From NCBI GenBank assembly GCA_049296775.1, contig JBAQTB010000001.1, positions 224,992 to 288,991 on the forward strand: a stretch of 64,000 nt of DNA. The letters are read 5' to 3'. A program made the position numbers and the translations under genes. Each line of letters begins with the position of its first letter. The first letter of the stretch is position 1. The stretch is from Patescibacteria group bacterium (GTDB taxonomy: Bacteria > Patescibacteriota > Patescibacteriia > UBA9934). Under the pieces are notes generated by a model. That model did not search any database. It saw only the letters and a program-made list of their open reading frames with translations, and had not been told where the DNA came from. Shown piece after piece: positions 26,988 to 64,000 of this stretch.

Positions 26988-27325
26988 AGGGCGGGAATTT
27001 AATTTTAATTTCTAAAAAGTAACTATAGTAAGGCTGTGGATAGTGTGGACAGATGCGTTGCGAGGCTATTTTACTTGAGATCCGCGGAGTTGGCTTGTGG
27101 ATGAAAACTGCATGGAGGTGTTCATGGGGTGTGGGGAAAAGAACTTCCCAGGTCTGGGTCAGGGTTTACTCGCTGTTTGTCCCCTGGTCTATCCCCCTAC
27201 TTATCCGGGGGTCTGTCCACGGCCTTGTCCACACTTTATACCCGATTCCGGGTTATCCGCTAGGTATCAACACTGTGTACACAGCATGGATAAGTTACTC
27301 GGTTTATACAGAGGTTATCCGCAGT
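26988..27325. promoter_or_regulatory. candidate oriC: dnaA-dnaN intergenic region with at least 8 DnaA-box-like 9-mers and an AT-rich DUE
   Basis: Boxes TGTGGATAG 27035, TGTGGACAG 27044, TGTGGATGA 27096, TTGTCCACA 27225, TTATCCGCT 27253, TGGATAAGT 27287, TTATCCGCA 27314. AT-rich stretch AATTTAATTTTAATTTCTAAAAAGTAACTATAGTAA at 26995-27030. Confidence 0.7.
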
Positions 27326-28810: not shown

Positions 28811-29089
28811 AGCCTACAAACAGGCAAAAGTGAATGAATGGTGGATGGAAATGGGGATAAGTAGGCAATATCTGGGGATAAGACCGGAAGTTATGCACAT
28901 TTTCACTGTAAAAGCTGTCAAGAATCGTGGTTTAATAGATGATGTAATTGTGACCCTGTTTAGACGTAGGCCGGGTATGGCCGTCGGCTAAAACTAGTCA
29001 CTAGAGCCCTAAGAGGCTAAAAGTCCGCCCAGTCAGGAGCGAATATTTGACATTTTTCAACGGGAGCCTTATGCTCTCAGCACTTTTCT

Positions 29090-42217: not shown

Positions 42218-42671
42218 CCGTATAGTCGTAGTGAGAGGGACTCAAGCCTCAAACCATGGCTATCGGCAGGTTATTTATGGGAGAAGTCTAGCTAAAAAAG
42301 CGCTAAACGTCAAGTTTTGAGCCTTAAAGAAAAACCGTCGCCTCCAGGGGAAGCGACGGCCGCGTGACAAGCGTCACAAGTCTGCAAGTGGAGTGCCTAC
42401 GAGGGGCACTCTGTAAACGGGTTTATGCCGAGCGTTGCTCGGCGTCAGTGGGTATCGTCAGAAGGTGGGGGCCCGGATGCCGAGGGGAAGGACCGGCGGC
42501 TCTCTGAGCGCTTCATGGCGTACCTCAAGCCAGTTTTACCTGGCTAGGAGTTGGGGGCTGGCTGAATCGCCATCTTTGCGACTCCAACACAAAGACAAGA
42601 CTATTCATGCCTGGTTTGGTAGGATTCGTCAATGCGCATGGTACAATTTACGACACATAAAGCTTCCGAAT

Positions 42672-43595
42672 ATGGAGAATGTTTTTGGCAAGTACTTAAA
42701 AGAATTTTTGGAGTATTTGGAAATTGAGCGGGGTCGTTCCGACAAGACGGTTCGTAACTACCATTTTTATTTAAAACGATTTTCGGATTGGGCGAATAAT
42801 CCTAACCCAGCTGAAATCAGTGGTGAATTAGTGCGTAAGTATCGCTTGCATTTGAATCGCAATGTCGCGGGGAGAGAAGAAGCGCAACTCAAAAAGAACA
42901 CTCAGAATTATCACTTGATTGCGCTAAGAGCCTTTTTGAAATATTTAGCTAAGCGTGATGTGCAGACACTGGCGCCAGAAAAGATCGAGTTATCCAAACA
43001 AGGGAGTCGACATGTGTCTTTTCTTGAGGCTGAGGAGTTAAAACGCTTTCTAGAGGCACCTGTGGGGGACCCAAGTATTGTTGGTGCCAGAGACAAAGCG
43101 ATTTTGGAGTTATTATTTTCTACCGGCCTACGTGTTTCTGAGATTGCGAACTTACGTATTGACGCGATCAATTTGAAATTGGACGAATTTACGGTGTTAG
43201 GCAAAGGCAGTAAGCACCGCGTAGTGTTTCTAGCTAATCCAGCCAGAATTGCGATTAAGACTTATTTGGAACGTCGTCGAGATGTGTCACCGTATTTGTT
43301 TGTGCGGCATGACAGAGCGCGTAAGTTTACCCCCGGCGCTCACCCCCTCACCCCACGATCAATTCAAAGAATCGTAGACAGATACGCGCGCATGGCCGGC
43401 ATCACCAAGCGCGTCACGCCGCATACTTTGCGGCATACTTACGCGACTGATTTATTGCGTAATGGTGCGGATATTCGTTCCGTACAATCTTTACTAGGTC
43501 ATGAGTCAATTACGACCACGCAGGTGTACACCCATATTACAGATAAAGAATTAAAACGGGTTTATCATCAATTTCATGATAAGACCGGAGAATAA
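42672..43595 (+). CDS. tyrosine site-specific recombinase, XerC/XerD family
   Basis: R..HxxR...Y catalytic set (HTLRHTYATDLL, LLGHESITTTQVYTHI). The ORF track starts at 42435, but that extension is GC-rich and non-coding-looking. MENVFGKYLKEF at 42672 is the likely start, with TGGTACAAT extended -10 upstream. Confidence 0.85.
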   Translation: MENVFGKYLKEFLEYLEIERGRSDKTVRNYHFYLKRFSDWANNPNPAEISGELVRKYRLHLNRNVAGREEAQLKKNTQNYHLIALRAFLKYLAKRDVQTLAPEKIELSKQGSRHVSFLEAEELKRFLEAPVGDPSIVGARDKAILELLFSTGLRVSEIANLRIDAINLKLDEFTVLGKGSKHRVVFLANPARIAIKTYLERRRDVSPYLFVRHDRARKFTPGAHPLTPRSIQRIVDRYARMAGITKRVTPHTLRHTYATDLLRNGADIRSVQSLLGHESITTTQVYTHITDKELKRVYHQFHDKTGE

Positions 43596-43703: not shown

Positions 43704-43780
43704 GCCTCGATAGCTCAGTTGGATAGAGCAAGGGACTTCTAAGCCCGAGGTCGCAGGTTCGAACCCTGCTCGAGGCACCA
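43704..43780 (+). tRNA. tRNA-Arg (anticodon TCT), CCA encoded; anticodon stem has only 3 G-C pairs flanked by A/G mismatches
   Basis: GCCTCGATAGCTCAGTTGGATAGAGCAAGGGACTTCTAAGCCCGAGGTCGCAGGTTCGAACCCTGCTCGAGGCACCA. Acceptor, D and T arms are perfect. Confidence 0.8.
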
Positions 43781-51329: not shown

Positions 51330-52265
51330 GTGTTCAGAGGGAATATGTTGAAGTTTTTTAAAGGCCTGGTTGTTTACTTTTCGCTTGGATTAGCGATTTT
51401 TTTGCCTTCCCTCGTAAATGCGGCCATGAGCTCAACGAATTATCGCATCCAGTTTGATTCTGTGGGTGTTGGGGGACTCGATAATCCGTCCTCGGCCTCC
51501 TACGGGCTCAGAGACACTTTGGAGTTTATTCAGGGGATCGGAACTTCAGCATCTTATAGGGTAGATGAGGGTTATAGAGGCGGGATTTACGACCCAATTG
51601 TGCATTTTACGGTGATTGCACAAGATACGGCGTCGCAAGTAGCAGCGACCGCAATTACGAGCACCTCGGTTTCAGTGACGTTGGCTACCGGTTACGTGAC
51701 CGGTGATTATATAGCCGTCATTCAAAATGAGGGGCTTAGTCAAATAGCGGCGATTGGTAGGATTACGAGTGTTGCGGGCGCTACCCTGAATATCGATTTC
51801 TTTACTGACGGCGGCACCTTTCCGGTGATCGATAGTGTCAATGATTATGTGTATGAGCTGACGGACACGGGTATCCCACTTAGTTCTTTAACACCGAGTA
51901 CGGCCCAGACCGGTATTTTGGCTTGGGATGTTGATGCTAGTGTGCCGGAAGGCTACAGCGTATATGTGTTTGAAGATCATGATCTGTGGGTTAGCTCTGG
52001 TACGGCGATTAATGATGTCGAGGACGGCGCTGTGACCACGAGTAATGAGGAGTATGGCGGCAGATCATCGGATACGACCTTGTCAGGCTCAACATTTGAT
52101 ACTGCGGATACGTCTTTCACGACTAGCTTACAGCAAGTAGCCAGTCGGAATGTTTCAACTTTGAAATCACGGGATTTTTTGACGCTGAAAGTGGCCGCCG
52201 CGGAGACCACGGTGGACGGCGCTTACTCGCATACGCTGACAGTAGTGTTCGTGGGTGATTATTAG
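51330..52265 (+). CDS. secreted protein with N-terminal S-x-N-Y-R-[IL]..V-G-V-G-G...S-S-A-S-Y-G-L motif domain, Thr/Ser-rich
   Basis: Signal peptide LKFFKGLVVYFSLGLAIFLPSLVNA. First gene of a same-strand cluster with 0-10-nt gaps and overlaps. Confidence 0.55.
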   Translation: MFRGNMLKFFKGLVVYFSLGLAIFLPSLVNAAMSSTNYRIQFDSVGVGGLDNPSSASYGLRDTLEFIQGIGTSASYRVDEGYRGGIYDPIVHFTVIAQDTASQVAATAITSTSVSVTLATGYVTGDYIAVIQNEGLSQIAAIGRITSVAGATLNIDFFTDGGTFPVIDSVNDYVYELTDTGIPLSSLTPSTAQTGILAWDVDASVPEGYSVYVFEDHDLWVSSGTAINDVEDGAVTTSNEEYGGRSSDTTLSGSTFDTADTSFTTSLQQVASRNVSTLKSRDFLTLKVAAAETTVDGAYSHTLTVVFVGDY

Positions 52266-53133
52266 TATGCGTAAGTTTTGGATGTTTACAGGGTGTTTGC
52301 TAATTTTTGGTCTGAGCTGCCACCGCTCGGCCTTAGCGCTTGTAGCCACGCCGTCAGCAGCGACACTTCAGGTTGAAATTGGGGAGCAGGCCATTCAGAG
52401 CTTGAATTACGAGAACGATGCGGGGGTTACGGAAGAGTTTCAATTGAGTTTAATGGAGGTGGAGTTTGGTGAATCAGCGGACGATCTCCGTTTTTTGCCA
52501 TTATCCGAGTCTAAACGAGCGGCAGTTAGCCTCAGCGCGGAGACTTTACATTTAGAGCCAGGTACCAGTCAGGCTGTCGAAGTGCGTATCAACGCTGGGC
52601 AGATATCAGAAAATTACGCATTAGCAGTGTTGGCGATGGGAGTCGCCCAAGGTGGGGCTGGAGTGAATGTAGCGAGTGCGCAGGCGAATTTGGTGTTTGT
52701 GAATGTGGGTGCTGTGGCGCCAGTAACTTTAAATATCGATTCATTTTCGACCATTCCAGAACAGGACCACGCTTCTCCAATCAAATTTGCAGTTTTACTG
52801 AGTAATCAAGGGGATGGCGTAGCGCAACCAAAAGTTGGCGTGCAGATCAAGAATATGTGGGGCAAGGAAGTTGAAGTGGTGCCGCTTAACCCTACCGGGC
52901 GTCGTATTCCGGGTCAGACAAGCCGGATTTTTTCTGCAGATTGGCAGGCGAGTAAATTTCAAACTGGCGTGTACCGGGCGACTGTTTACGTTTATCCGGA
53001 CGATTCCGAGCAAGTGCTCACGCAAGAATTGCGCGTGGTACTATTTAGCTGGCGATTGCTTTGCATTTTAGCTGGCGCGGGCGTGCTTTTGATAGCGTCA
53101 GGACTAATTTTAAGGCGAGCAATGAGTCGATAA
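52255..53133 (+). CDS. exported beta-rich protein with C-terminal TM anchor and basic tail
   Basis: Signal peptide, then a C-terminal [27 protein letters not shown]. The start overlaps the upstream stop by 11 nt. Confidence 0.55.
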
Positions 53134-53134
53134 T

Positions 53135-55591
53135 GTGAGTTTAAGGCAGCGAGTTTATTTTAGATTAGTTGGGATATTTTTGACGATCATTGTTTCAATG
53201 TCGCCATTTTTTGGTGGGTTACAAGTGGCGAAAGCAAGTACGGTAAATGATTTAACGGATCAACCTTCGAGTTTATTGATCTCGACGGATTCGAATCACA
53301 AATTCACCTTCACGTTAACTTCTGATATTGCTGAAGGTGAAACGTTTACATTCGATTTTCCAGCGGCTTTTGATACTGCCGCAATCACAGAAAATGATGT
53401 TGACGTGACTTCGGATGGCATTGATCTAGTCACAGATAGTACCTGTAGTTTGGGGACCGAAATGAGTATCGCGATGGCGGCGGACAGTTTGACTTTGACG
53501 AGTTGCGCGGGCTCGGGAGGGCTGAGTATTGGACGTGTTTTGCAGGTAGAAGTGGGGACTAACGCTTCGGCATCAGGTTCTGGAACGGAAAAAATTACTA
53601 ATCCAAGTACAGAAGGTACGTATTCTATTGGGATTGCAGGGACATCTGGCAATTTAGGTGCGATTCCGTTACCAATTGGGACGCGGAGCGGAGCGGGAGT
53701 ATCGGTCAATTTCAGCGGCGGATCTTCTGGAGGAGGGCCGACAGGTGGTGGCGGAGGGGGTGGAGGTGGCGGTGGGCTTCCCGATCCTGATCCAGACCCT
53801 GATCCTGAACCTGAACCGGAGCCCGAGCCTGAACCAGAGCCTGAACCGGAACCAACTCCTGACCCTGAACCGGAACCTGAGCCAACACCGGATCCTGATC
53901 CTGAGCCAGAACCTGACCCGGAGCCCGAGCCTCCAATTGAGCCTGAGCCTGATGAACCGGTGGAAGATGAGGATGAACCAACTGACACTCAAGTGAATGA
54001 TCCGGCGGTAAGAATACGGATTTTTGGAGCACCAGGCTTGCAATTAAGCGTGGGAGAGGCGAGTGTGGACGTGATTGCGGGCACAAGGGTGCGCGTCAAT
54101 ATCGAAGTCGATTCTGCGCCGGATATCCGTGCAGTACTTTTGATCATTGGTGACGATCAGTACGTTTTGTCAGATGACGGTACGGGTAAATTTACTGGTA
54201 GCCTGACGATTCCAGCATCGGATGAAGTCATCAGCGGCTTAGTTTTGTTAGCTGACGGCGCGCAGTTATCGACTAATTTGGCGCTTCACATAGTCTCTGC
54301 GGGCTCAGTTTATGTTGTGATTGACGGACAGCGGCAAAATTTGAGTGACAGTGTGATTACGGCGTATACGCAGGCTCAAGGACGTGAAGCGGCTTGGGGG
54401 GCGTCTGGTTACGGTCAAGCCAACCCGGTTCTTTCAGCCTCGGGGAGTTTTTACTGGTACGTGCCGAACGGTGGTTATGTGGTTTATGCCAGTCACGACG
54501 GGTATGGAGAAGGGAGACAAACGGTGCAGGTGAGAAACAATATTTTGGCACCGAGCATGCAATTGTTTGTGCCGGTTGTTGAGGTTCAAGATTCGATTTT
54601 GCCGTTGCCGGCGGCTGAGGCCATAGCCGCAATTCAGGACATTTTAGCGACCCCAGAGGCGCAAACGGTGGCTAAAGTGGCTTTACCGACCACGATCGCA
54701 CTGACCGTTGGTTTGATTACGCTCTTGGCGTTTGGGTTCAATTTATTGCCGTATCTTCAATACTTTTTAACGTCACCATTCCTATTTTTCGGTCGTAAAC
54801 GCCGGAACGCATACGGGGTAGTTTATAACTCGATTAGTAAGATTCCGATTGAATTAGCAACAGTACGTTTGTACAACTGGGCGGATAATCGACTAGTCAA
54901 AAGTGTGGTCACAAGTCCGGATGGTAGGTATTCGATGATCGTTAATCCGGGTGAGTATCGTCTGCTGGTGGTGAAACCTGGTTTTGAGTGTCCGAGTCAA
55001 TACGTGGGAGAAGTGAAGACTGATGGGAAATATCTTGATGTCTACACCGGTCAGATGTTGAAAGTGACGGAGACAGAGGCTTTAGTGGCCGCAAATATTC
55101 CGATTGATCCGTCTCAAGCGGATGCTCATCATGCCCCACGATTATTGGCATTGAAACGTTTCGCTAGAACGCTACAGCAGATTTTGGCTCCAATTGGCGT
55201 GTTATTGTCGGTAATTGTTTACATAATTTCTCCGTCGACCTTTGCTTTGGTGATGGCGATCGCGCAATTTGTGGTTTGGTTACTTGTGATCAGATTGGTG
55301 AAGCCGACCAAGCCGCAAGGTTGGGGGATTGTGTATGACGAAAAGAGTCAACAGCCTGTGGGCAATACTGTCATTCGGGTGTTTGAACCGAAGTATAATA
55401 AGTTAGTCGAGACTGCTCTCACTGACAGTCGCGGTAGGTACTCGTTCATACTCGGGCCGAACGAATATTTTGTGACTTACAACAAGCCCGGATACACGGA
55501 AAAGATTGTGCGCCCAATCGATTACACTAATAAGCCGGAGCCAACGCCCGTGGCGATGAACGTTGCGTTGCAACATGTATCGGGGGAGTAG
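53135..55591 (+). CDS. large membrane protein with poly-Gly/(Asp-Pro, Glu-Pro)n spacer and two C-terminal carboxypeptidase-regulatory-like beta-sandwich domains
   Basis: N-terminal TM; tract G4-G15 followed by [36 protein letters not shown]...; central TM helices; motifs [27 protein letters not shown] and [27 protein letters not shown]. Confidence 0.6.
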
Positions 55592-55592
55592 C

Positions 55593-58500
55593 ATGTTCCA
55601 GATCGGAAAATACAGCTTTAAACGAACACTCGCCAGAGTGCTACTGGTGGGTATTTGTGTTTTGCAAGGGTTGAGTGCGGTGACTCCGGTGAGTCCTGTC
55701 TTGGCTGCTTCGGCTCCAAATATTTTGAATTATCAAGGACGCGTTTTAAATGCGAATGGTATTCCAGTGACGGATACTTCCTTGACCATGATCTTTGAGT
55801 TTTACACCTCGTTGGCTGGTGGCACGTGTGTGTGGTCAAACAGTTCAGCGACTTGTGCATCAGCAACAGGCAAGGCTGTGACTTTGACGGATGGATTGTT
55901 TACCCAGAGTCTGGGTGACACAACGGACTCATTTGCGGCAATCGGTGATGATATTTTTGGAGATAACGCGGCTTTGTTTTTGCAGGTCACTATTGCTGGT
56001 GAAGTTTTAACGCCAAGAAAGCAGATGGTAGCCGCACCGTACGCTTTGAATTCTGAAACTTTGGATGGCTTGAATGCGGATACAGATGGAGCCACGAGTA
56101 GCGCGATCGTAGCTTTGAGTTCAGCAGGAAATGTTATTTTTACCGGTGATTCAACGGGCGCTACGGTTGATGCGGGTGTGGCGTATATCAATCCAGCTGC
56201 GGCTGGAGCTAATGAAACCTTGTTAGGAATTGGTGATAACGGAACGGAGAGATTTAGGATCGATAAAGAGGGGGACGTGTTTATTAAGTCGATTGAATTA
56301 GACGGTGTAGGTACGAACAACGTCACTTCTGGTGCTTCTCTGATAGGTACATTTAACGAATTTAGTTTGTCGGCGGGCACTACTGTTCAGGATGTTTTGG
56401 ACGATCTCGACCAGGCCATTGATGATATTGTAACGGGTGGAGCGGTTTCCAAATGGACTGATGATGGCACGTTTACGTATTTAACTTCCGTCACGGATGA
56501 CTTTGTGTTAGGTGACAGCACGATTGCTGGAGCTTCACTGTATTTCGATGTTGGTACTGGTCAGCTGGACCTTGGTACCGACGAAGCGCTAGGCGGTATT
56601 TTGCGCTTGTATAGCGTAACAGCTGCGACAGCTGATCCTACTTTAGCTGCGGATGCCAGTGGAAATTTGGATATTACGACTGCGACCGTAGAGATTTCTG
56701 GTGATTTAGAAGTGTCTGGTGGTGACATTACAACTGCGGCTGCGACCTTGAACTTGGCTGCGACGAACGCTACCACGGTCAACGCCTTCGCTGCGGCTAC
56801 GACGCTGAACATTAATGACGCCGCGGTTACCTCTACCATCGACATTGGTGGCGTGACATCGAGCGGTACGAACACCGTTAACATTGCGACTAACGCGACA
56901 GCTGCTGACGGTATTACCATCGGTAACAGTCACGCTTCGACAACTCTTGCTCTGACTGGAGGTGATGACTGGTCAATTGCAGCCACCGGCGTCATGACAT
57001 TGTCAGCTTCTGCTGCGGCAACTACCGCCATCGTCATCACTGACACCGATTACACCAACTCCTTGTCGATCGGCGACAACAACATTACCGGTACTACTTA
57101 CTCATTAATTGGTACGACATCAACGATTGACTTTACGAATTTTGACGTCGCCTCGACTGGAGCTATCACTGTCGCAGCTGGCACAGGGCTAGACACGAAC
57201 GGTGCTGGTGCTCTCGCCCTTGGTAACACGAATGCTACTTCAGTCTCAGTTTGTAACTCAGCCGCTTGTGACACGATTTCTATTGGTACCAACGCTGATG
57301 CTGACGCCATTACGATTGGTGACTCGAGCGACACTGTAATCATCAACGGTACGGCACTCTCTCTAGTTATCGGCGCTACCACCGTTGCTGGAGCTGAGAT
57401 CACTATCTTAGACGGTGGCATCGCTCTGTCAGAATTAACCGACTCCGGCACATTGACCGCTACTACTGTCGACATCAACGGAGGTGCCATTGATGGCACG
57501 GCCATTGGAGCTTCTTCGCCCTCAACCGGAGCCTTCACGACTCTGTCTAGCACTGGCGTCACGGCTCTCGGTAACAACTCGGCCACGGTCGCGATCAACT
57601 CCTCTGACTGGGACATCTCAGCTACGGGTGCTATGACAGGGATTGGGGCTATTACAGCTGATGGCTTGATCACTGGCTCAGCCGGCCTGACAGTTTCTGG
57701 CGGTAACATCACGACTTCAGCTGCTCAGATCCTAGGAGCTTCTCCATTTGTATTCGAAGGTGCGACTGATGATGATGTCACTACGACATTCGCCATTACT
57801 GATCCAACCGGAGCTAGAACGATCACTTTCCAGAACGCTTCAGGCACTGTCGCTTTCTTGACTGATACTGTTTCTCCGACACTGACAGATAACGTGGCTG
57901 ATGCGCTAGATATCCAAGAGGGCACTAACAACTACATCAACATTAATACTACGGATGCTTCAGAGAGCATCGCTTTTGGTAATGCCACGACTAACCCTAG
58001 TTTCTCTTTCTTGGGTAGTGGTACGGTGACCACTGCCGGAGACATCGCCCTGAACGGAGGAGATCTCACGAGTTCATCGGCGACCTTCAACCTGTTAGCT
58101 ACGGCCTCAACGACAGTCAACGCCTTCGCCGCTGCCACGACGCTTAACATTAATGACGCCGCGGTTACTTCTACCATCGACATTGGCGGTGTTACTTCTA
58201 GCGGCACTAACACCGTTAACATTGCGACTAATGCTACGGCCGCTGACGTGATTACCATCGGTAACAGTCACGTCTCGACGACTGTAGCTCTAACAGGTGG
58301 TGACGACTGGTCAATCGCTGCGACCGGTGTCATGACCCTGTCAGCTTCTGCTTCTGCGACAACTGCCATCGTCATTACTGACACCGACTACACCAACTCC
58401 TTGTCGATTGGCGATAACAACATTACCGGTACTACTTACTCACTGATTGGTACGACTTCTACCATCGACTTTACTAACTTTGACGTCGCCTCTACTGGAG

Positions 58501-61500
58501 CAATTACTGTCGCCGCCGGTACAGGCCTCGACACGAACGGTGCTGGTGCTCTAGCCCTCGGTAACACGAATGCTACTTCAGTCTCAGTGTGTAACTCAGC
58601 CGCTTGTGACACGATTTCTATCGGTACAAACACCGATGCTGACGCTATAAACATCGGTGACACTAATGACACCGTGACCATTAGCGGTACTTCACTGTCT
58701 CTAGTTATCGGCGCTACGACTGTCTCCGACGGTGAGATTACTATTCTTGATGGCGGCATCGCTCTCTCTGAACTGACTGACTCGGGCACTCTTACTGCTA
58801 CCACCGTCGACATCAACGGTGGCGCTATTGATGGTACTGCCATTGGTGCTAACTCTCCTTCATCTGGTGCCTTCACCACACTATCGAGTACTGGCGTCAC
58901 GGCTCTTGGTAATAACTCGGCTACAGTTGCGATTAACTCAAGTGACTGGGACATCTCAGCCACTGGAGCCATGACAGGGATTGGAGCTATTACTGCTGAT
59001 GGCTTGATCACTGGCTCAGCCGGCCTGACAGTTTCTGGCGGTAACATCACGACTTCAGCTGCTCAGATCCTGGGCGCTTCTCCATTTGTTTTTGAGGGCG
59101 CTACTGATGATGATGTAACTACTACTTTTGCGATTACTGATCCAACCGGAGCTAGAACGATCACTTTCCAGAACGCATCTGGCACTGTCGCTTTCTTAAC
59201 TGACACTCTGTCGTCGACATTAACAGATAACATCACTGACTCATTAGACATCCAAGAGGGTACTAACAATTACATCAACATTAATACTACGGATGCTTCC
59301 GAGAGCATCGCTTTTGGTAATGCCACCACTAACCCAAGTTTCTCGTTCCTTGGAAGCGGCACAGTTACTACTGCTGGAGACATCGCCCTGAACGGTGGCG
59401 ACTTAACGAGTTCATCCGCGACCTTCAACCTGTTAGCTACCGCTTCTACCACAGTTAACGCCTTCGCTGCGGCGACGACGCTTAACATTAACGATGCGGC
59501 GGTCACCTCTACCATCGACATTGGTGGCGTTGACTCGAGTGGCACTAACACGGTTAACATTGCGACTAACAGCACAGCAGCCGATGTAATTACGATCGGC
59601 AACACCAACGCCTCAACAACTCTCGCTCTGACTGGAGGTGATGACTGGTCAATTGCAGCAACGGGAGTCATGACTCTCTCTGCTAGCGCTGCCGCAACTA
59701 CAGCCATCGTCATTACTGACACCGACTACACCAACTCCTTGTCGATTGGCGATAACAACATTACCGGTACTACTTACTCACTGATCGGTACGACCTCGAC
59801 TATTAACTTCACTAACTTTGATGTCGCTTCAACTGGAGCTATTACTGTAGCGGCTGGTACAGGTTTAGACACTAATGGAGCCGGAGCCCTCGCACTCGGA
59901 AACACTAATGCTACCTCGGTCTCTGTCTGTAACTCAGCCGCTTGCGATACGATTAGTATTGGTACGAATGCTGATGCGGATGCCATTACGATCGGTGACT
60001 CGAGTGACACGGTGATCATTAACGGTACGGCACTCTCTCTCGTCATCGGAGCTACAACGGTCGCTGGAGCTGAGATCACTATCCTAGACGGTGGCATTGC
60101 TCTGTCCGAATTAACCGATTCTGGCACTCTGACTGCTACCACCGTCGACATCAATGGAGGTGCCATTGACGGCACGGCCATTGGCGCTGCTTCACCATCG
60201 ACGGGAGCTTTTACAACTTTATCGAGCACCGGTAACGTTACTTTGTCTAGTGCTCAGATCCTAGGAGCTTCTCCATTGGTATTCGAAGGAGTGACTGATG
60301 ACAACGTCACTACCACTTTTGCCATTACCGATCCAACCGGAGCTAGGACTATAACTTTTCAGAATGCGTCAGGTACAGTAGCTTTTCTAACGGATACCAT
60401 TTCTCCTACGCTGACGGATAACACTTCCGATGCTCTGGATATTCAGGAGGGAACGAATAATTACATCAACATTAATACCACCAATACCTCTGAGAATATT
60501 GCTTTTGGTAATGCCACCACCAACCCCAGCTTTTCTTTCCTGGGTAGTGGTACGGTGACCACTGCCGGAGACATCGCCCTGAACGGTGGCGACTTAACGA
60601 GCTCATCCGCAACTTTCAACCTGTTAGCTACGGCATCGACTACTGTCAACGCCTTCGCGGCTGCCACCACGCTTAACATTAATGACGCTGCAGTTACCTC
60701 GACCATCGACATCGGTGGTGTGACATCAAGTGGTACTAACACCATTAACATTGCGACTAACGCTACGGCCGCTGATGCTATCACGATTGGTAACACTCAC
60801 GTGGATACAGCTTTGGAGCTTAGAGGTGGTGATGACTGGTCGATTGCATCGAGTGGAGTTATGACTCTGTCAGCTAGTGCATCCGCGACTACAGCTATAG
60901 TCGTTACTGACACTGACTACACTAATGCTCTATCAATTGGAGACAATAACATCACGGGTACTACTTACTCATTAGTAGGTACAACAGCAACCATCAATTT
61001 TACCAACTTTGATCTATCCGGCACTGGAGACATTACGGTTGCTGCTAACGGTGGTCTGGATACGAATGGTGCTGGCTCATTGCTGTTAGGCGGAACTAAT
61101 GCCACCACTGTCTCAGTGTGTAACTCTGCCGCTTGCGATAATTTTAATCTTGCCACTAACGCTGATGCAGATATAATTTCAATTGGTGATTCAATGGATA
61201 GTCTAGCCTTATCATCAGCTAACTGGTCGATCACGACTGCTGGTTTGATTACGACTGCCGACGACCTCGCCTTGAACGGAGGGGATCTAACTAGCTCATC
61301 TGCCACCTTCAACTTGCTAGCTACTGCCTCGACCACCGTCAACGCCTTCGCCGCAGCCACGACACTCAACCTCAATGATGCAGCAGTGACGTCCACTATT
61401 CATATTGGTGGTGTGACTTCTAGCGGGACTAATACCGTGAATATCGCTACCAACGGTACAGCTGAAGATGAGATTAACATTGGTAATACTAATGCGGCTA

Positions 61501-64000
61501 CATCTTTGGAGCTGATTGGCGGTGATGATTGGTCGATTGCGAATACCGGAGTTATGACCCTGTCTACCAGCTCTACCCCCGCAACGGCGATTGTAGCTAC
61601 GGATACGGGTTACACTAATGCGCTCTCAATTGGAGATAACAATATTACCGGTACCACCTACTCATTGGTTGGTACTACGTCAACAATCGATTTTACTAAC
61701 TTTGACGTAGCCTCGACCGGAGCTATCACTGTCGCTGCGGGTACTGGACTAGACACTAACGGCGCAGGAGCTTTAGCTATCGGTAACACGAACGCTACTT
61801 CAGTCTCAGTCTGTAACTCAGCGGCTTGTGACACAATTACGATTGGTACTAACGCTGACGCCGATGCGATTACGATTGGTGACTCAAGTGATTCAGTATC
61901 AGCAGTTTCGGCTAACTGGTCGATTACGACGGCTGGTTTAATCACGACAGCCGACGATCTCGCCTTGAATGGAGGGGATCTCACTAGCTCATCCGCGACC
62001 TTTAACCTGCTTGCTACCGCCTCGACTACCGTTAACACCTTTGCCGCAGCCACTACGCTTAACATTAATGACGCTGCGGTTACTTCCACAATCGACATTG
62101 GAGGTGTTACCTCAAGCGGTACTAACACCGTCAACATTGCCACTAACTCGACTGCCGCTGATGTCATCACGATTGGTAACACGAATGCTTCGACCACTCT
62201 AGCTCTGACAGGTGGTGATGATTGGTCAATTGCAGCAACCGGTGTCATGACCCTGTCTGCTTCTGCTTCCGCGACAACCGCCATCGTTATCACGGACACC
62301 GATTACACCAACTCCTTGTCGATCGGCGACAATAACATCACCGGTACCACTTATTCACTGATTGGTACGACGTCAACGATTAATTTTACCAACTTTGACG
62401 TAGCCTCGACTGGAGCTATCACTGTCGCTGCGGGTACTGGACTAGACACAAATGGAGCTGGAGCATTGGCACTCGGTAACACTAACGCTACTTCAGTCTC
62501 AGTGTGTAACTCAGCTGCTTGTGACACGATTTCTATCGGTACCAATACAGACGCTGACGCTATAAGTATTGGTGATGCTAATGACACTTTGGCGATCGAT
62601 ACCTCGACGTGGTCAGTAACTACCGCTGGAGCTGCGTCATTTAGCACCCTTGCTACCAATAGCGATGTTAATTTCAACTTCACTACTGCCAGTAGTGGCA
62701 CGGAAAACTTCGTGATCGCCAGTACGCATGCGACTGACGCCACTTTGGTAGTCCAGCAAATTGGCATGACCAATACGGCCGCAGCCGACACCGGCACCAA
62801 TTACTTGCTCGCCCTAACTAATGAAAATGATGGCGGTGCTACCGGTACGCCTGATGCCTTATTGTTCATCTCCCAAGACGATACTAACGAAGCCGTGGCT
62901 AGCGGTATTCTTTTCGATGCTGCTGGCGGTGGCTTAACCACCGCGATCATGGCTACCGATGCACAAATTGATACCGCCCTCAGCGTGGGAGCTAATGACA
63001 TCGTGGGTACCACAGGTTTAATTAACTACACCAACTTCGATGTTGCCTCAACTGGGGCTATTACTGTCGCTGCAGGTACGGGGCTAGACACTAATGGCGC
63101 AGGCGCCCTCGCCCTTGGTAATACCAACGCTACTTCAGTCTCAGTCTGTAACTCTGCCGCCTGCGACACGTTTACGATTGGTACAAATACAGATGCCGAC
63201 GCTATCACCATCGGCGATACTAACGATACCCTCACCATCGGCGCCCTTACCTCAATCACCAACAACTCCGCGACCACATCCGAGGCAGTTACCATTACTA
63301 CTAATGGGCTTACATCGGGTAGATCGTTAATTGTGGCGAGTACAGGCGAAGCAGCGACAACGGGCACGGGAGCTCTTATTTATGTTAGTGGCACTAGAAC
63401 GTCTACCGGTACTATTTCCGGCCATGTTCTAGATGTTACGAGGCAAATGAATAATAGTTCAGGTGGTTTACTTTCTGTCACCGGAGATCTTCTGAGTATT
63501 TTAAGTAATAATTCCAATACTTCAGGCACTTTGACAGATTCTGCGACTTTGCTGAATGTCGAGCAAAGTAATACCGGCGCGACTGGCAGCGTTTTGAACA
63601 TTGGCAACAACGGCACTGGTTCCGCAATATTTGTTACTCAAGATAATGCTACTGGCACGACGGTTGACACGACTGCTGGTGGGGCTATTCATGTTGATAA
63701 TACCGGTAACGATAACTACGGACTCACGGTTTATAGCGATAATTCAGCAGCTTCGTCGCCTTTAGCTTACTTTTTCGCTGATCACACTACCTTTGCTAGT
63801 GATGTTGTTGCCATTCGGAATGATTCTTCCGCTTCTGCTTTGGTAATTACTCAAAATACTGTGGCGAATGCGACGGTGGGAGCGAATTCCCAAGCATTGG
63901 TGATTAATGTAAATGAAGCCGCAAACAGTGAGGAGGTGATTGTTATTATTTCAGATGCAGATGGGACGCCTGATTTAGAGTTTAGGTTCGAGAATGATGG
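55593..64000 (+). CDS. giant repetitive cell-surface fibre/adhesin-like protein (>2,800 aa within window; 3' end beyond window)
   Basis: ATG 2 nt after the upstream stop. Signal or TM segment FKRTLARVLLVGICVLQGLSAV. N-terminal domain with NILNYQGRVLNANGIPV...PRKQMVAAPYALNSETLDG. The frame is then uninterrupted to the window end, encoding Thr/Ala/Gly/Asn/Ser-rich repeats. Not in the ORF track because no stop codon occurs in-window. Confidence 0.8.
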   Translation, partial: MFQIGKYSFKRTLARVLLVGICVLQGLSAVTPVSPVLAASAPNILNYQGRVLNANGIPVTDTSLTMIFEFYTSLAGGTCVWSNSSATCASATGKAVTLTDGLFTQSLGDTTDSFAAIGDDIFGDNAALFLQVTIAGEVLTPRKQMVAAPYALNSETLDGLNADTDGATSSAIVALSSAGNVIFTGDSTGATVDAGVAYINPAAAGANETLLGIGDNGTERFRIDKEGDVFIKSIELDGVGTNNVTSGASLIGTFNEFSLSAGTTVQDVLDDLDQAIDDIVTGGAVSKWTDDGTFTYLTSVTDDFVLGDSTIAGASLYFDVGTGQLDLGTDEALGGILRLYSVTAATADPTLAADASGNLDITTATVEISGDLEVSGGDITTAAATLNLAATNATTVNAFAAATTLNINDAAVTSTIDIGGVTSSGTNTVNIATNATAADGITIGNSHASTTLALTGGDDWSIAATGVMTLSASAAATTAIVITDTDYTNSLSIGDNNITGTTYSLIGTTSTIDFTNFDVASTGAITVAAGTGLDTNGAGALALGNTNATSVSVCNSAACDTISIGTNADADAITIGDSSDTVIINGTALSLVIGATTVAGAEITILDGGIALSELTDSGTLTATTVDINGGAIDGTAIGASSPSTGAFTTLSSTGVTALGNNSATVAINSSDWDISATGAMTGIGAITADGLITGSAGLTVSGGNITTSAAQILGASPFVFEGATDDDVTTTFAITDPTGARTITFQNASGTVAFLTDTVSPTLTDNVADALDIQEGTNNYININTTDASESIAFGNATTNPSFSFLGSGTVTTAGDIALNGGDLTSSSATFNLLATASTTVNAFAAATTLNINDAAVTSTIDIGGVTSSGTNTVNIATNATAADVITIGNSHVSTTVALTGGDDWSIAATGVMTLSASASATTAIVITDTDYTNSLSIGDNNITGTTYSLIGTTSTIDFTNFDVASTGAITVAAGTGLDTNGAGALALGNTNATSVSVCNSAACDTISIGTNTDADAINIGDTNDTVTISGTSLSLVIGATTVSDGEITILDGGIALSELTDSGTLTATTVDINGGAIDGTAIGANSPSSGAFTTLSSTGVTALGNNSATVAINSSDWDISATGAMTGIGAITADGLITGSAGLTVSGGNITTSAAQILGASPFVFEGATDDDVTTTFAITDPTGARTITFQNASGTVAFLTDTLSSTLTDNITDSLDIQEGTNNYININTTDASESIAFGNATTNPSFSFLGSGTVTTAGDIALNGGDLTSSSATFNLLATASTTVNAFAAATTLNINDAAVTSTIDIGGVDSSGTNTVNIATNSTAADVITIGNTNASTTLALTGGDDWSIAATGVMTLSASAAATTAIVITDTDYTNSLSIGDNNITGTTYSLIGTTSTINFTNFDVASTGAITVAAGTGLDTNGAGALALGNTNATSVSVCNSAACDTISIGTNADADAITIGDSSDTVIINGTALSLVIGATTVAGAEITILDGGIALSELTDSGTLTATTVDINGGAIDGTAIGAASPSTGAFTTLSSTGNVTLSSAQILGASPLVFEGVTDDNVTTTFAITDPTGARTITFQNASGTVAFLTDTISPTLTDNTSDALDIQEGTNNYININTTNTSENIAFGNATTNPSFSFLGSGTVTTAGDIALNGGDLTSSSATFNLLATASTTVNAFAAATTLNINDAAVTSTIDIGGVTSSGTNTINIATNATAADAITIGNTHVDTALELRGGDDWSIASSGVMTLSASASATTAIVVTDTDYTNALSIGDNNITGTTYSLVGTTATINFTNFDLSGTGDITVAANGGLDTNGAGSLLLGGTNATTVSVCNSAACDNFNLATNADADIISIGDSMDSLALSSANWSITTAGLITTADDLALNGGDLTSSSATFNLLATASTTVNAFAAATTLNLNDAAVTSTIHIGGVTSSGTNTVNIATNGTAEDEINIGNTNAATSLELIGGDDWSIANTGVMTLSTSSTPATAIVATDTGYTNALSIGDNNITGTTYSLVGTTSTIDFTNFDVASTGAITVAAGTGLDTNGAGALAIGNTNATSVSVCNSAACDTITIGTNADADAITIGDSSDSVSAVSANWSITTAGLITTADDLALNGGDLTSSSATFNLLATASTTVNTFAAATTLNINDAAVTSTIDIGGVTSSGTNTVNIATNSTAADVITIGNTNASTTLALTGGDDWSIAATGVMTLSASASATTAIVITDTDYTNSLSIGDNNITGTTYSLIGTTSTINFTNFDVASTGAITVAAGTGLDTNGAGALALGNTNATSVSVCNSAACDTISIGTNTDADAISIGDANDTLAIDTSTWSVTTAGAASFSTLATNSDVNFNFTTASSGTENFVIASTHATDATLVVQQIGMTNTAAADTGTNYLLALTNENDGGATGTPDALLFISQDDTNEAVASGILFDAAGGGLTTAIMATDAQIDTALSVGANDIVGTTGLINYTNFDVASTGAITVAAGTGLDTNGAGALALGNTNATSVSVCNSAACDTFTIGTNTDADAITIGDTNDTLTIGALTSITNNSATTSEAVTITTNGLTSGRSLIVASTGEAATTGTGALIYVSGTRTSTGTISGHVLDVTRQMNNSSGGLLSVTGDLLSILSNNSNTSGTLTDSATLLNVEQSNTGATGSVLNIGNNGTGSAIFVTQDNATGTTVDTTAGGAIHVDNTGNDNYGLTVYSDNSAASSPLAYFFADHTTFASDVVAIRNDSSASALVITQNTVANATVGANSQALVINVNEAANSEEVIVIISDADGTPDLEFRFEND
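56746..63200 (+). repeat. tandem coding repeats inside the giant gene: three ~1,339-bp units (56746, 58086, 59425), then units of ~1,190, ~691, ~695 and ~650 bp; each carries the V-C-N-S-A-A-C-D motif
   Basis: Copies are about 85-90% identical at the nucleotide level, with differences concentrated at synonymous third positions. Confidence 0.8.

What the first reader, a model, noticed from the sequence alone, without database searches (positions are those of the whole stretch)
56746..63200. Giant gene is built of ~446-aa tandem repeats that are synonymously recoded, with later units shortening
The motif block ...FTNFDVASTGAITVAAGTGLDTNGAGALALGNTNATSVSVCNSAACDT... recurs seven times with spacings of 1338, 1339, 1189, 690, 695 and ~650 bp. 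Aligned copies differ mostly at codon third positions (e.g. GGTGGCGTGACATCGAGCGGTACG vs GGCGGTGTTACTTCTAGCGGCACT), so the amino-acid sequence is conserved while the DNA has diverged. This implies old duplications under purifying selection, or selection against homologous recombination between repeats. The repeat composition (T/A/G/N/S, IGDxxxTG, paired Cys C-x4-C) suggests a beta-helix or beta-solenoid fibre. Antisense frames stay open for 100-213 codons because of the codon bias, producing spurious minus-strand ORFs.
Basis: seen in the sequence. Interest (0 to 1): 0.7.

Follow-up and report, generated by a model that had tools for sequence, protein, structure and literature searches.

The report
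Giant repeat-built surface fibre gene (CPR)
This is the first 2,802 codons of a roughly 3,500-codon gene from a tiny symbiotic (Patescibacteria/CPR) bacterium; it most likely encodes a phage-tail-fibre-like surface fibre whose shaft grew by duplicating a 231-aa and a 446-aa module, and the copies kept their protein sequence while their DNA drifted apart, which is what ordinary strong purifying selection produces.

Summary
An ORF starting at 55593 runs off the window end (at least 2,802 aa). It contains (A+B)x2, one A+B with a 49-aa deletion, Ax3, and then a divergent older A-type module. The exact spacings are 1338, 1338, 1191, 693, 693 and 642 nt. Units are 90-97% identical in protein but 81-86% identical in DNA, with dN/dS of 0.03-0.13.

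Three tests found no evidence of active recoding against recombination:
- Codon sharing between units is never below random expectation.
- Identical DNA tracts (77-83 nt) are longer than a permutation null, not shorter.
- Paralogous units have the same dN/dS as orthologous modules in other genomes.

The best reading is lineage-specific duplications of an unusually constrained shaft module, now near synonymous saturation. The same signature recurs in three other Patescibacteria genomes.

The single-chain beta-helix idea is not supported. No beta-helix family matches, and the AlphaFold monomer has no intrachain sheets. The evidence points instead to a secreted, probably trimeric, phage-tail-fibre-like or MAT-like mosaic fibre. 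That evidence is a signal peptide, an N-terminal beta-sandwich with sub-threshold Bdellovibrio MAT hits, phage tail-fibre motifs, and an intramolecular-chaperone domain in complete orthologs exactly where the window ends. The gene closes a conserved four-gene cassette that begins with a distant Pam-type pilin. The antisense ORFs are compositional artefacts.

The parts
51345..52265 (+). orf1 (306 aa): secreted protein, a distant Pam-type pilin-like protein and the first gene of the conserved cassette
   Evidence: Signal-peptide-like N-terminus. Sub-threshold NCBIfam hit to CPR_pilus_PamT (E 4.5e-7). Orthologs in L003, L004, L006, L033 and L037 hit PamT (E down to 6e-12) and the full-length CPR_Pam_pilin_C model (E down to 1e-8), all below the curated cutoffs. 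The exact protein is on record in an independent assembly.
52267..53133 (+). orf2 (288 aa): N-terminal signal peptide, beta-rich body and C-terminal transmembrane helix; function unknown (chaperone-like topology)
   Evidence: Sequence inspection. No Pfam or NCBIfam hit. Conserved next to orf1 in L003 and L004. The topology matches the description of PamC/PamD in bioRxiv 10.64898/2026.03.03.709456, but homology was not shown.
53135..55591 (+). orf3 (818 aa): membrane protein with a Gly-run, a Pro/Glu/Asp-rich linker and two CarboxypepD_reg beta-sandwich domains; its stop lies 1 nt before the giant gene's start
   Evidence: Pfam CarboxypepD_reg, E 1.1e-20, two stretches. PE-rich tandem repeat at 53783-53932. 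Hydrophobic segments by inspection. Conserved upstream of the giant gene in L003, L004, L006, L033 and L037.
55593..63998 (+). Giant fibre gene, 5' part (2,802 codons, no stop within the window; about 660 more codons predicted by homology)
   Evidence: Open frame to the window end. The window's last residues align to aa 2035 of the complete 2,696-aa ortholog in L075.
55593..55715 (+). Sec-type signal peptide (aa 1-41, ...VLAA/SAP)
   Evidence: Basic n-region, hydrophobic core and an AxA-like site, by inspection. The N-terminus is conserved in the orthologs.
55665..56117 (+). N-terminal anchor domain (beta-sandwich; YQGR...W...G...PR...A signature), MAT-N-like
   Evidence: AlphaFold2 pLDDT 85 (core above 94), all-beta. 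No specific PDB or viral fold match. Sub-threshold Bdello_MAT_N hits here (E 3.7e-7) and in five relatives. The family has at least 449 proteins, mostly from Patescibacteria.
56118..56714 (+). Neck region (aa 176-374), non-repeated in this gene but reused as a module in relatives
   Evidence: The same segment (SGASL.G.F.EF...VQDVLDDLD...SKWTD.G.FTYLTS...) occurs internally in the L005 protein at aa 560-680.
56715..57407 (+). Module A1 (231 aa, contains CNSAAC)
57408..58052 (+). Module B1 (215 aa; phage-tail-fibre-like motifs DINGGAIDGTAIG..GAFTTL, INSSDWDISATG and LTDN..DIQEGTNNYININTT)
58053..58745 (+). Module A2
   Evidence: Used as the query.
58746..59390 (+). Module B2
   Evidence: 96.7% protein and 85% DNA identity to B1. 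Matches annotated phage tail fibre genes.
59391..60083 (+). Module A3
60084..60581 (+). Module B3 (166 aa): module B lacking the 49-aa INSSDWDISATG sub-module
60582..61274 (+). Module A4 (most diverged copy, 71-80% protein identity to the others)
61275..61967 (+). Module A5
61968..62660 (+). Module A6 (93-96% core identity to A1-A3)
62697..63236 (+). A7: a distinct, older A-type module (about 52% identical to A1-A6), orthologous to the distal A-type module of L075 (72%) and L074 (62%)
   Evidence: Identity matrix and neighbour-joining tree.
63273..63998 (+). Non-repeat distal region that leads into the C-terminal intramolecular-chaperone region (the latter lies outside the window)
   Evidence: Aligns to L075 aa 1817-2035. 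Peptidase_G2 IMC domain at L075 aa ~2022-2101, 28.9 bits against a cutoff of 25.

Best explanation
**What it is.** The ORF from 55593 encodes the first 2,802 residues of a secreted giant surface fibre, about 3,460 aa by homology. The organism is a Patescibacteria (CPR) bacterium. This is a chromosomal gene about 27 kb from dnaA.

**Architecture (shown).** Signal peptide, then a roughly 130-aa beta-sandwich anchor domain, a neck, a shaft made of modules A (231 aa) and B (215 aa), and a distal non-repeat region. In complete orthologs this is followed by a Peptidase_G2-type intramolecular-chaperone region and a Pro/Glu-rich tail.

**How the shaft arose (shown).** The shaft was lengthened by lineage-specific tandem duplication. 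A1-A6 form one clade, and the single first A module of each sister genome lies outside it. The duplications are old enough for synonymous sites to be half to fully saturated (pS 0.45-0.80). The protein sequence has been held by strong purifying selection (dN/dS 0.03-0.13). That is the same constraint the module experiences between species, and the module is the slowest-evolving part of the whole locus.

**Consequence of the DNA divergence (inferred).** The DNA divergence is a passive result of age plus constraint. It does make the array more stable and easier to assemble, but nothing shows it was selected for that. Patches of long identical DNA suggest occasional short gene conversion or partial re-duplication.

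**Function (inferred).** The chains assemble as an intertwined homotrimer, like phage tail fibres and Bdellovibrio MAT fibres, with help from the C-terminal chaperone. The N-domain sits at the cell surface. The number of modules sets the fibre's reach. The distal end contacts the host cell on which the episymbiont lives.

**Gene context.** The gene is the last of a conserved four-gene cassette (orf1, a distant Pam-type pilin; orf2; orf3; fibre). These products probably act together as one surface appendage.
For: **Repeats and selection.**

**No active recoding.**
- Codon sharing is at or above random in all 16 pairs.
- Identical tracts are longer than the null and patchy.
- Paralog dN/dS equals ortholog dN/dS. 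Between species, the A core has dN 0.09-0.11, against 0.19-0.34 for the N-domain, orf1 and orf3.

**Lineage-specific expansion.** Tree of A modules.

**The same signature elsewhere.**
- L005: 38 unit pairs at 93% protein identity or more, median DNA identity 0.85 and pS 0.49.
- L019: 93% protein against 79% DNA identity.
- L153: 86-89% protein against 76-78% DNA identity.
- Some relatives instead have ordinary young repeats: L033, L015 and L029.

**Fibre nature.**
- Module B motifs are shared with Gp10_C baseplate proteins and beta-helix depolymerase-like proteins. They also occur in annotated tail fibre genes of Pelagibacter and Roseobacter phages.
- Sub-threshold but reproducible Bdello_MAT_N hits immediately after the signal peptide in 6 family members.
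- Proteins with the same N-domain carry varied tips: Peptidase_S74, beta-helix, DUF4082 and CBM_4_9.
- Peptidase_G2 IMC domain in complete orthologs at the point where the window ends.
- The monomer AF2 model is extended with no intrachain sheets.

**Mosaicism.** P0001 has an N-domain 35-42% identical but an A1 module 95% identical.

**Cassette synteny.**

**Not a prophage.** Housekeeping genes on both sides: RmuC, PolA, S20, S15 and dnaA in the window, and TPR plus YchF downstream in the orthologs.

**Literature.** MAT fibres, PMC10769870. A 'tail fibre-like protein' co-localising with pam operons in CPR, bioRxiv 10.64898/2026.03.03.709456.
Against: - Trimerisation, surface location and host binding are not shown.
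- The unit model has low confidence (pLDDT 60), so 'no intrachain sheets' is weak evidence.
- All MAT_N and Pam hits fall below the curated cutoffs.
- The AlphaFold database, where MAT N-domains could have been compared by fold, was unavailable.
- The window lacks the C-terminus, so the chaperone domain and tip are inferred from orthologs that are 36-75% identical.
- dS is near saturation, so dN/dS values and relative ages are rough.
- The codon-sharing null uses gene-wide codon usage. It cannot exclude a weak 'survivorship' effect, in which only arrays that had already diverged in DNA persist.
- Copy number in the window rests on a single assembly. Identical 77-83-nt tracts could let an assembler skip or add a unit in frame.
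Confidence: 0.65

Rival explanations
1. Adaptive recoding. Synonymous differences between units were positively selected, or arrays were filtered by survival, because identical DNA repeats are deleted by homologous recombination or slippage. On this view the DNA divergence is itself the adaptation.
For: Protein identity of 93-100% with pS of 0.3-0.65 recurs in several independent genomes. The principle that synonymous changes lower the repeat mutability of coding tandem repeats is published for eukaryotes (PMC6162428). Short-read assemblers, and presumably recombination, see few long identical tracts.
Against: Codon sharing is never below random expectation (z = 0.4 to 10). Identical tracts of 77-83 nt (window) and up to 233 nt (L005) persist, well above typical recombination thresholds, and are longer than a permutation null. 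Paralogous dN/dS equals orthologous dN/dS for the same module. Other family members tolerate young repeats with 92-98% codon sharing (L033, L015, L029).
Confidence: 0.12
2. One reading: each chain folds on its own into a long parallel beta-helix or beta-solenoid, a monomeric adhesin like FHA, autotransporter passenger domains or pectate-lyase-like proteins.
For: T/A/G/N/S-rich composition with recurring hxhG[DN] motifs. Some proteins that share the B-module motif or the N-domain do carry right-handed beta-helix domains (P0070, P0180).
Against: No Beta_helix, NosD, pectate-lyase or haemagglutinin-repeat hit in 2,802 aa. The AF2 monomer shows zero DSSP strands despite pLDDT of about 70 across module A. 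Orthologs end in an intramolecular chaperone domain typical of trimeric phage appendages. No profile match to any solved structure.
Confidence: 0.1
3. The fibre is not anchored directly to the cell. It is displayed on, or assembled with, a Pam-like donor-strand-exchange pilus encoded by orf1-orf3. That would make it a composite appendage, with a pilus stalk carrying a phage-like fibre.
For: The order orf1-orf2-orf3-fibre is conserved in at least seven loci. orf1 orthologs hit PamT and the Pam pilin C-domain. orf2 has the signal-peptide plus C-terminal-TM topology described for Pam chaperones. The Pam preprint reports a tail fibre-like protein at the centre of pam neighbourhoods.
Against: All Pam hits are far below the curated cutoffs (29-45 bits against 240, and 21-35 against 55). 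orf2 and orf3 have no Pam hits. No ATP synthase genes were seen near the cassette. A related fibre gene (L153) sits instead beside a type IV pilus cluster, so the association is not universal.
Confidence: 0.15
4. Assembly artefact: the array, or its copy number, was produced by misassembly of a shorter or longer repeat region.
For: Public assemblies routinely fail here. The Logan contig stops at the first shared 31-mer. The L003 MAG has a 100-N gap in the repeats. Most database homologs are partial. Identical 77-83-nt tracts could allow in-frame unit skipping.
Against: There are no Ns in the window. The frame is intact over 8.4 kb and all spacings are multiples of 3. Every unit has its own pattern of synonymous differences. 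Complete relatives with similar arrays exist, and one was assembled near-identically in two independent assemblies, with 1 difference in 9,888 nt.
Confidence: 0.05
5. A prophage or phage tail-fibre gene, not a cellular gene.
For: Motifs are shared with annotated phage tail fibres and Gp10_C proteins. Orthologs carry an IMC domain.
Against: No PHROG match for any part. A Sec signal peptide is present. Housekeeping genes flank the gene on both sides, and the position in a cellular cassette is conserved across genomes.
Confidence: 0.03

Closest known systems
Bdellovibrio bacteriovorus MAT (mosaic adhesive trimer) fibres (Caulton et al. 2024, PMC10769870; NCBIfam NF053851 Bdello_MAT_N)
   Same: A signal peptide followed directly by a conserved beta-rich N-domain of about 130 aa that has no solved structural homologue. 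A long Thr/Ala/Gly/Ser-rich fibre. Mosaic, swappable distal parts. A phage-type intramolecular chaperone in part of the family. Use by a bacterium that lives on other bacteria. The HMM hits fall at the right position in 6 family members.
   Different: The hits are sub-threshold (20-32 bits against a cutoff of 60). The protein is about 3 times longer than MATs, which are roughly 1,000 aa. The shaft is built from 231-aa and 446-aa tandem modules, and module A is found in only 162 of 1.84 billion cluster representatives. The chaperone in orthologs is Peptidase_G2 and not S74. The organism is a monoderm-like CPR bacterium, and the gene sits in a cassette with a Pam-like pilin.
Phage tail fibres and appendages with C-terminal intramolecular chaperones (Peptidase_G2 of phi29/GA-1-type pre-neck appendage; Peptidase_S74 of endosialidase and T5 L-shaped fibre)
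   Same: Short motifs shared with annotated tail fibre genes and with Gp10_C proteins. A Peptidase_G2 IMC domain in orthologs. Modular, mosaic evolution.
   Different: This is a cellular, secreted protein in a chromosomal cassette. It has no PHROG match and is far larger and internally repeated.
Pam pilus system of CPR bacteria (Troman et al. 2026, bioRxiv 10.64898/2026.03.03.709456)
   Same: CPR-specific. The neighbouring orf1 resembles PamT and the Pam pilin C-domain. The preprint notes a conserved 'tail fibre-like protein' in pam neighbourhoods.
   Different: The giant protein itself is not a pilin. The Pam hits are weak. No PamA, PamB, PamC, PamD or PamR equivalents were detected, and no ATP synthase genes are adjacent.
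Tandem-repeat surface adhesins that evolve in concert (staphylococcal SasG/Aap, streptococcal alpha-C/Rib, Bap-type)
   Same: A surface protein whose length is set by the number of large tandem repeats.
   Different: In those proteins the repeats are near-identical in DNA and vary in number by recombination (from general knowledge). Here the DNA is 14-31% diverged while the protein is conserved.
Coding tandem repeats whose repetitiveness is lowered by synonymous mutations (Candida albicans, Arabidopsis, human; PMC6162428)
   Same: The amino-acid repeat is conserved while the DNA repeat is degraded by synonymous changes.
   Different: That work concerns short repeats and argues for adaptive tuning of the mutation rate. 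Here the units are 231-446 aa, and the tests give no sign of selection for divergence.

Membership tests
MAT (mosaic adhesive trimer) superfamily | Conserved beta-rich N-terminal domain of about 130 aa immediately after the signal peptide (NF053851) | tested here: inconclusive
   The window protein's aa 36-116 hit NF053851 at E 3.7e-7, 30.1 bits against a cutoff of 60. Five relatives hit at 20-32 bits. The domain models as a confident beta-sandwich with no PDB homologue, as reported for MATs. A fold comparison with MAT N-domains was not possible because afdb50 was unavailable.
MAT (mosaic adhesive trimer) superfamily | Intertwined homotrimeric beta-helix/beta-prism fibre | not testable with these tools
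The monomer model is extended with no intrachain sheets. That is compatible with a trimer but does not prove one.
MAT (mosaic adhesive trimer) superfamily | Variable C-terminal tip, with or without an S74 chaperone-protease | tested here: inconclusive
   The tip lies outside the window. Orthologs L074 and L075 carry Peptidase_G2 IMC, not S74. Other proteins with the same N-domain carry S74, beta-helix, DUF4082 or CBM_4_9.
Phage tail fibre/appendage with intramolecular chaperone | C-terminal IMC domain (Peptidase_G2 or S74) | tested here: inconclusive
   Met in ortholog L075 (28.9 bits, above the cutoff of 25) and marginal in L074 (23.2 bits). The window ends exactly where this domain begins.
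Phage tail fibre/appendage with intramolecular chaperone | Encoded in a phage or prophage structural module | tested here: not met
   Housekeeping neighbours. No PHROG hits. A signal peptide is present.
Right-handed parallel beta-helix / beta-solenoid proteins | Match to Beta_helix, NosD or pectate-lyase-type repeat models | tested here: not met
   The Pfam scan of all 2,802 aa gave only one marginal unrelated hit (ORF_12_N, 27.9 bits, no stretch passing the threshold on its own).
Right-handed parallel beta-helix / beta-solenoid proteins | Single chain forms stacked intrachain beta-rungs | tested here: not met
   The AF2 model of A2+B2 has 0 residues in strands by DSSP and pLDDT 59.7. The low confidence limits the weight of this result.
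Pam pilus system (CPR) | Pam pilin fold (N-terminal beta-sandwich plus truncated Ig C-domain) in a neighbouring gene | tested here: inconclusive
   orf1 and its orthologs hit PamT at E 4.5e-7 to 6e-12 (29-45 bits against 240). They hit Pam_pilin_C over its full length at E 2e-4 to 1e-8 (21-35 bits against 55).
Pam pilus system (CPR) | Membrane-anchored PamC/PamD chaperones and a PamR terminator in the operon | tested here: inconclusive
   orf2 has a signal peptide and a C-terminal TM helix but no family hit.
Concerted-evolution tandem-repeat adhesins | Repeat units near-identical at the DNA level | tested here: not met
   Units are 69-86% identical in DNA. TRF finds no tandem array in the gene.

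The most novel reading that the evidence does not exclude
The fibre and the three upstream genes form a previously undescribed composite appendage of CPR bacteria. In this reading a distant Pam-type, donor-strand pilus system (orf1-orf3) carries or anchors a phage-like trimeric fibre more than 3,000 aa long. The fibre's reach is tuned by expansions of an ultra-constrained 231-aa module, and arrays persist only once their DNA has diverged (survivorship selection for synonymous divergence).
Probability: 0.12. Interest if true: 0.7.

Novelty: new variant of a known kind. Interest (0 to 1): 0.4.

Why it matters
CPR/Patescibacteria are a large, mostly uncultured part of bacterial diversity, and they live attached to host cells. 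How they recognise and hold hosts is largely unknown.

This locus shows that they encode very large, phage-tail-fibre-like, MAT-like mosaic fibres in a conserved cassette with a pilin-like gene. These are concrete candidates for host-recognition structures.

The work also gives a practical warning. Such genes are nearly always truncated or gapped in public short-read assemblies, so their size and abundance are underestimated.

On the evolutionary question the result is sobering. A striking 'recoded repeat' pattern needs no special mechanism. Age plus strong constraint explains it, and simple codon-sharing and tract-length tests can tell the two readings apart.

Tried and rejected
- **BLASTP self-comparison.** It returned only the diagonal, so it was replaced by chunked queries.
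- **Tandem Repeats Finder.** It sees no array in the gene because the period exceeds 500 nt and the DNA has diverged.
- **Exact-protein look-ups.** The look-up of the 818-aa orf3 failed, probably because the called start differs. The look-up of P0001 also failed, so no DNA was available for the closest relative, and orthologous dS against P0001 could not be computed.
- **First GTDB scan.** Using the window's C-terminal part as the query found nothing.
- afdb50 was unavailable.
- **Pfam ORF_12_N hit.** A marginal hit (27.9 bits, summed from weak pieces) that I disregarded as spurious.
- **A misreading, corrected.** I first read the L003/L074 difference as a 415-codon copy-number indel. Reading the sequence showed a 100-N scaffold gap in L003. 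The claim is withdrawn, and the '1,927-aa' L003 ORF length is not real.
- **L153 against L154.** The two copies differ by a single synonymous site, too little to say anything about selection.
- **DGR-type hypermutation.** Considered and rejected without a dedicated test, because the differences are synonymous and spread over whole units.


Full report
**1. What is in the sequence**

The + strand, frame 3, is open from the stop at 55557 to the end of the window. The most likely start is ATG 55593. It is preceded by GGGGGAG and lies one base after the stop of the upstream ORF. This gives 2,802 codons with no stop.

The product is 18% Thr, 14% Ala, 10.5% Gly, 10% Ser, 8% Asn and 8% Asp. It contains almost no Lys, His, Trp, Met or Arg. 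It begins with a Sec-type signal peptide (MFQIGKYSFKRTLARVLLVGICVLQGLSAV...LAA/SAP).

Reading the translation and locating motifs gives a modular plan:
- An N-terminal region, aa 1-374.
- Module A (231 aa, with one CNSAAC pair), starting at aa 375, 821, 1267, 1664, 1895 and 2126.
- Module B (215 aa), following A1 and A2.
- B3, following A3, which lacks 49 aa.
- A divergent A-type module around aa 2519.
- A non-repeat region running to the window end.

CNSAAC-to-CNSAAC spacings are 1338, 1338, 1191, 693, 693 and 642 nt. Its spacings were slightly off. Its 'shortening' is really a change from A+B units to A-only units.

**2. The DNA really has diverged while the protein has not**

Nei-Gojobori estimates:

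| Pair | Protein identity | DNA identity |
|---|---|---|
| A1/A2/A3 | 90-94% | 81-83% |
| B1/B2 | 96.7% | 85% |
| A4, A5 vs others | 71-80% | 68-72% |

Differences concentrate at codon position 3. pS is 0.45-0.80 and dN/dS is 0.03-0.13.

**3. Old duplications or selection against recombination?**

I ran three tests.

(a) If codons had been pushed apart, units should share fewer codons at identical residues than random draws from the gene's own codon usage would give. In all 16 pairs, sharing is at or above expectation (z = 0.4 to 8.8).

(b) If identity tracts were being broken up, the longest identical DNA runs should be shorter than when the same synonymous differences are shuffled among sites of the same amino acid. 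They are longer: 77 nt for B1/B2 and 83 nt for A2/A3, with P <= 0.001. Divergence is also patchy, with 30-codon windows at 0.98 identity next to windows at 0.64-0.80. This points to occasional short gene conversion or partial re-duplication.

(c) Calibration against orthologs. Two complete, syntenic orthologs were recovered from metagenomes: L074 (2,342 aa) and L075 (2,696 aa). Between species, the A core has dN/dS of 0.04-0.06 and dN of 0.09-0.11. The N-domain, orf1 and orf3 have dN of 0.19-0.34. Paralogous units show the same dN/dS (0.03-0.10). Module A is simply the most constrained part of the locus.

A tree of A modules puts A1-A6, together with the A1 of the relative P0001, in one clade. 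The single first A module of L074 and of L075 falls outside it. The expansion is therefore lineage-specific and younger than that speciation. The distal A7 is an older type, orthologous to L075_2 and L074_3.

Together these results favour passive synonymous divergence of moderately old duplicates under strong purifying selection. A weak survivorship effect cannot be excluded. The general idea that synonymous changes reduce the mutability of coding repeats is already published (PMC6162428).

**4. The pattern is a family trait, not a one-off**

A scan of GTDB genomes gave 71 loci. Many contain giant ORFs: L005 at least 4,779 aa, L015 at least 5,456, L036 3,912, L023 3,657 and L034 3,268.

Genomes with the same signature:
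- L005 (another Patescibacteria MAG) has 11 copies of a 257-aa-period module. Thirty-eight pairs have at least 93% protein identity, with median DNA identity 0.85 and median pS 0.49. Codon sharing is again always above random, and identical runs reach 233 nt.
- L019 shows 93% protein against 79% DNA identity.
- L153, the gene for the complete 3,295-aa P0249, shows 86-89% protein against 76-78% DNA identity.

Other relatives (L033, L015, L029) have ordinary young repeats with 92-98% codon sharing. The family therefore tolerates identical DNA repeats.

Module A itself is rare. Only 162 of 1.84 billion cluster representatives match at E <= 1e-3.

**5. What the protein is**

The organism is a Patescibacteria (CPR) bacterium. 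The best hits are Patescibacteria, Uhrbacteria and Andersenbacteria MAG proteins, nearly all 'hypothetical' and partial.

Pfam finds no beta-helix or adhesin repeat family. No solved structure matches by sequence or profile.

Module B contains short motifs that are 60-75% identical to segments of unrelated proteins:
- DINGGAIDGTAIG..GAFTTL occurs in phage Gp10_C baseplate-type proteins.
- LTDN..DIQEGTNNYININTT..FGNATTNPSF occurs in beta-helix depolymerase-like proteins.
- tblastn finds these motifs inside annotated tail fibre and baseplate genes of Pelagibacter and Roseobacter phages.

The region just after the signal peptide hits the NCBIfam model for the N-domain of Bdellovibrio mosaic adhesive trimer (MAT) fibres. 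The hit is below the cutoff (30 bits against 60) but reproducible in five relatives. With a 79-sequence alignment it models as a confident beta-sandwich (pLDDT 85). It has no specific PDB or viral fold match, which is what the MAT paper reports for its N-domain (PMC10769870).

A profile of this domain finds at least 449 proteins, mostly from CPR, with very different C-terminal parts: Peptidase_S74 chaperone, right-handed beta-helix, DUF4082 and CBM_4_9. The protein P0001 has an N-domain only 35-42% identical to the window's but an A1 module 95% identical. The family is mosaic.

The window's last residues align to aa 2035 of L075. Immediately after that point, L075 and L074 carry a Peptidase_G2 intramolecular-chaperone domain (28.9 bits against a cutoff of 25, and 23.2 bits). 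This is the kind of domain that assists trimerisation of phage appendages. A globular region and a Pro/Glu-rich tail follow. By homology, about 660 aa are missing from the window.

The AF2 monomer of A2+B2 is an extended chain with no intrachain beta-sheet (pLDDT 60). That argues against a self-contained solenoid and is compatible with an intertwined oligomer. A direct trimer test was not possible.

I conclude that the product is most likely a secreted, trimeric, tail-fibre-like or MAT-like fibre whose shaft length is set by the number of modules. Trimerisation, surface display and host binding are inferred, not shown.

**6. Genomic setting**

The gene is the last of four co-oriented, abutting genes, 51345-55591 plus the fibre. 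The same order is conserved in L003, L004, L006, L033, L037, L074 and L075.
- orf1 and its orthologs give sub-threshold but consistent hits to the CPR pilus protein PamT and to the Pam pilin C-domain.
- orf2 has a signal peptide and a C-terminal TM helix.
- orf3 is a membrane protein with a PE-rich linker and CarboxypepD_reg domains.

The preprint describing Pam pili notes a 'tail fibre-like protein' at the centre of pam neighbourhoods. That may be this family, but I could not test it.

The flanks are housekeeping genes (RmuC, PolA, holA, S20, S15 and dnaA in the window; TPR protein and YchF downstream in the orthologs). This is not a prophage. In another genome (L153) a related fibre gene lies next to a type IV pilus cluster.

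**7. Antisense ORFs**

All eleven minus-strand ORFs inside the gene are in the same frame. In that frame, antisense codon position 1 pairs with sense position 2. A stop there needs a sense TAN or CAN codon. Tyr, His and Gln are each 0.3-1% of the protein. That frame has 39 stops in 2,801 codons, against 142 and 327 in the other two. The ORFs repeat with the 1338-nt period. They are compositional by-products.

**8. Assembly**

The window has no Ns. An independent short-read contig is identical up to 56978 and stops inside the first 31-mer that recurs in the gene. L003 has a 100-N gap in its repeats. I first misread that gap as an indel and have withdrawn the claim.

Diverged arrays can be assembled reproducibly. 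L153 and L154 differ at 1 of 9,888 nt. The window's unit count is still unverified.

**9. Verdict**

'Selection against recombination' and 'beta-helix/solenoid' are not.

The object is a new, very large CPR variant of the known kind 'mosaic phage-like surface fibre'. It has a rare, strongly constrained shaft module and a conserved pilin-like cassette. Interest is moderate.

Noticed in passing
window 26000-29000 (dnaA at 27326-28810, minus strand): dnaA lies where the cumulative GC skew reaches its minimum and flips sign (about 26-28 kb). The window probably contains the chromosomal replication origin, and the fibre cassette lies about 27 kb away on the leading strand.
   Followed up: partly
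window 56000-64000: GC skew turns negative inside the giant gene although the surrounding leading-strand region is positive. Codon position 2 is 41% C because of the Thr/Ala/Ser content, so amino-acid composition overrides the replication skew here.
   Followed up: partly
window 53783-53932 (inside orf3); also the C-termini of L074, L075 and P0249: orf3 has a Gly-run followed by a (Pro-Glu/Asp)n linker, which TRF detects as 6/18/24-nt repeats. The complete fibre orthologs end in similar Pro/Glu/Val-rich tails. These may be a shared wall-spanning or spacer element.
   Followed up: no
window 60084-60581 (B3) compared with L005: The 49-aa deletion in B3 removes exactly the 'INSSDWDISATG' sub-module. 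In L005 that sub-module is repeated on its own many times, so modules A and B are themselves assemblies of smaller mobile sub-modules.
   Followed up: partly
L003 10366-10465; L001 end (= window 56978): Public assemblies fail inside these genes. The L003 MAG has a 100-N scaffold gap in the repeats. The Logan contig ends at the first 31-mer shared between units. Most database homologs are labelled 'partial'. The sizes and counts of such genes in CPR are probably underestimated.
   Followed up: yes
L153 5607-21386: The complete 3,295-aa relative (P0249) is flanked upstream by a Phage_holin_4_2-family gene. Downstream are a response regulator and a type IV pilus cluster (T2SSE ATPase, T2SSF platform, N_methyl pilins). 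This is a different appendage context from the Pam-like cassette of the window.
   Followed up: no
L033, L037, L015 and others (record titles): Several TPA_asm MAG records titled 'uncultured Gammaproteobacteria bacterium' carry the same orf1-orf3-fibre cassette as the Patescibacteria loci. Their taxonomic labels look doubtful.
   Followed up: no
window 42435-43595 with tRNA-Arg at 43704-43780: A tyrosine recombinase (Phage_integrase plus SAM-like domains) sits next to a tRNA-Arg gene. It could be XerC/D or the edge of an integrated element. A protein with the fibre N-domain fused to integrase SAM-like domains (P0169) also appeared among the hits and is probably a gene-call fusion.
   Followed up: no
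window 55593-63998, all Cys positions: Apart from one Cys in the signal peptide and a pair in the N-domain (C79, C88), every Cys in the protein belongs to one C-N-S-A-A-C pair per A module. This motif is conserved as C[NS]SAAC in L074, L075 and P0249. It may form a local disulphide or an axial metal site in an oligomer.
   Followed up: no
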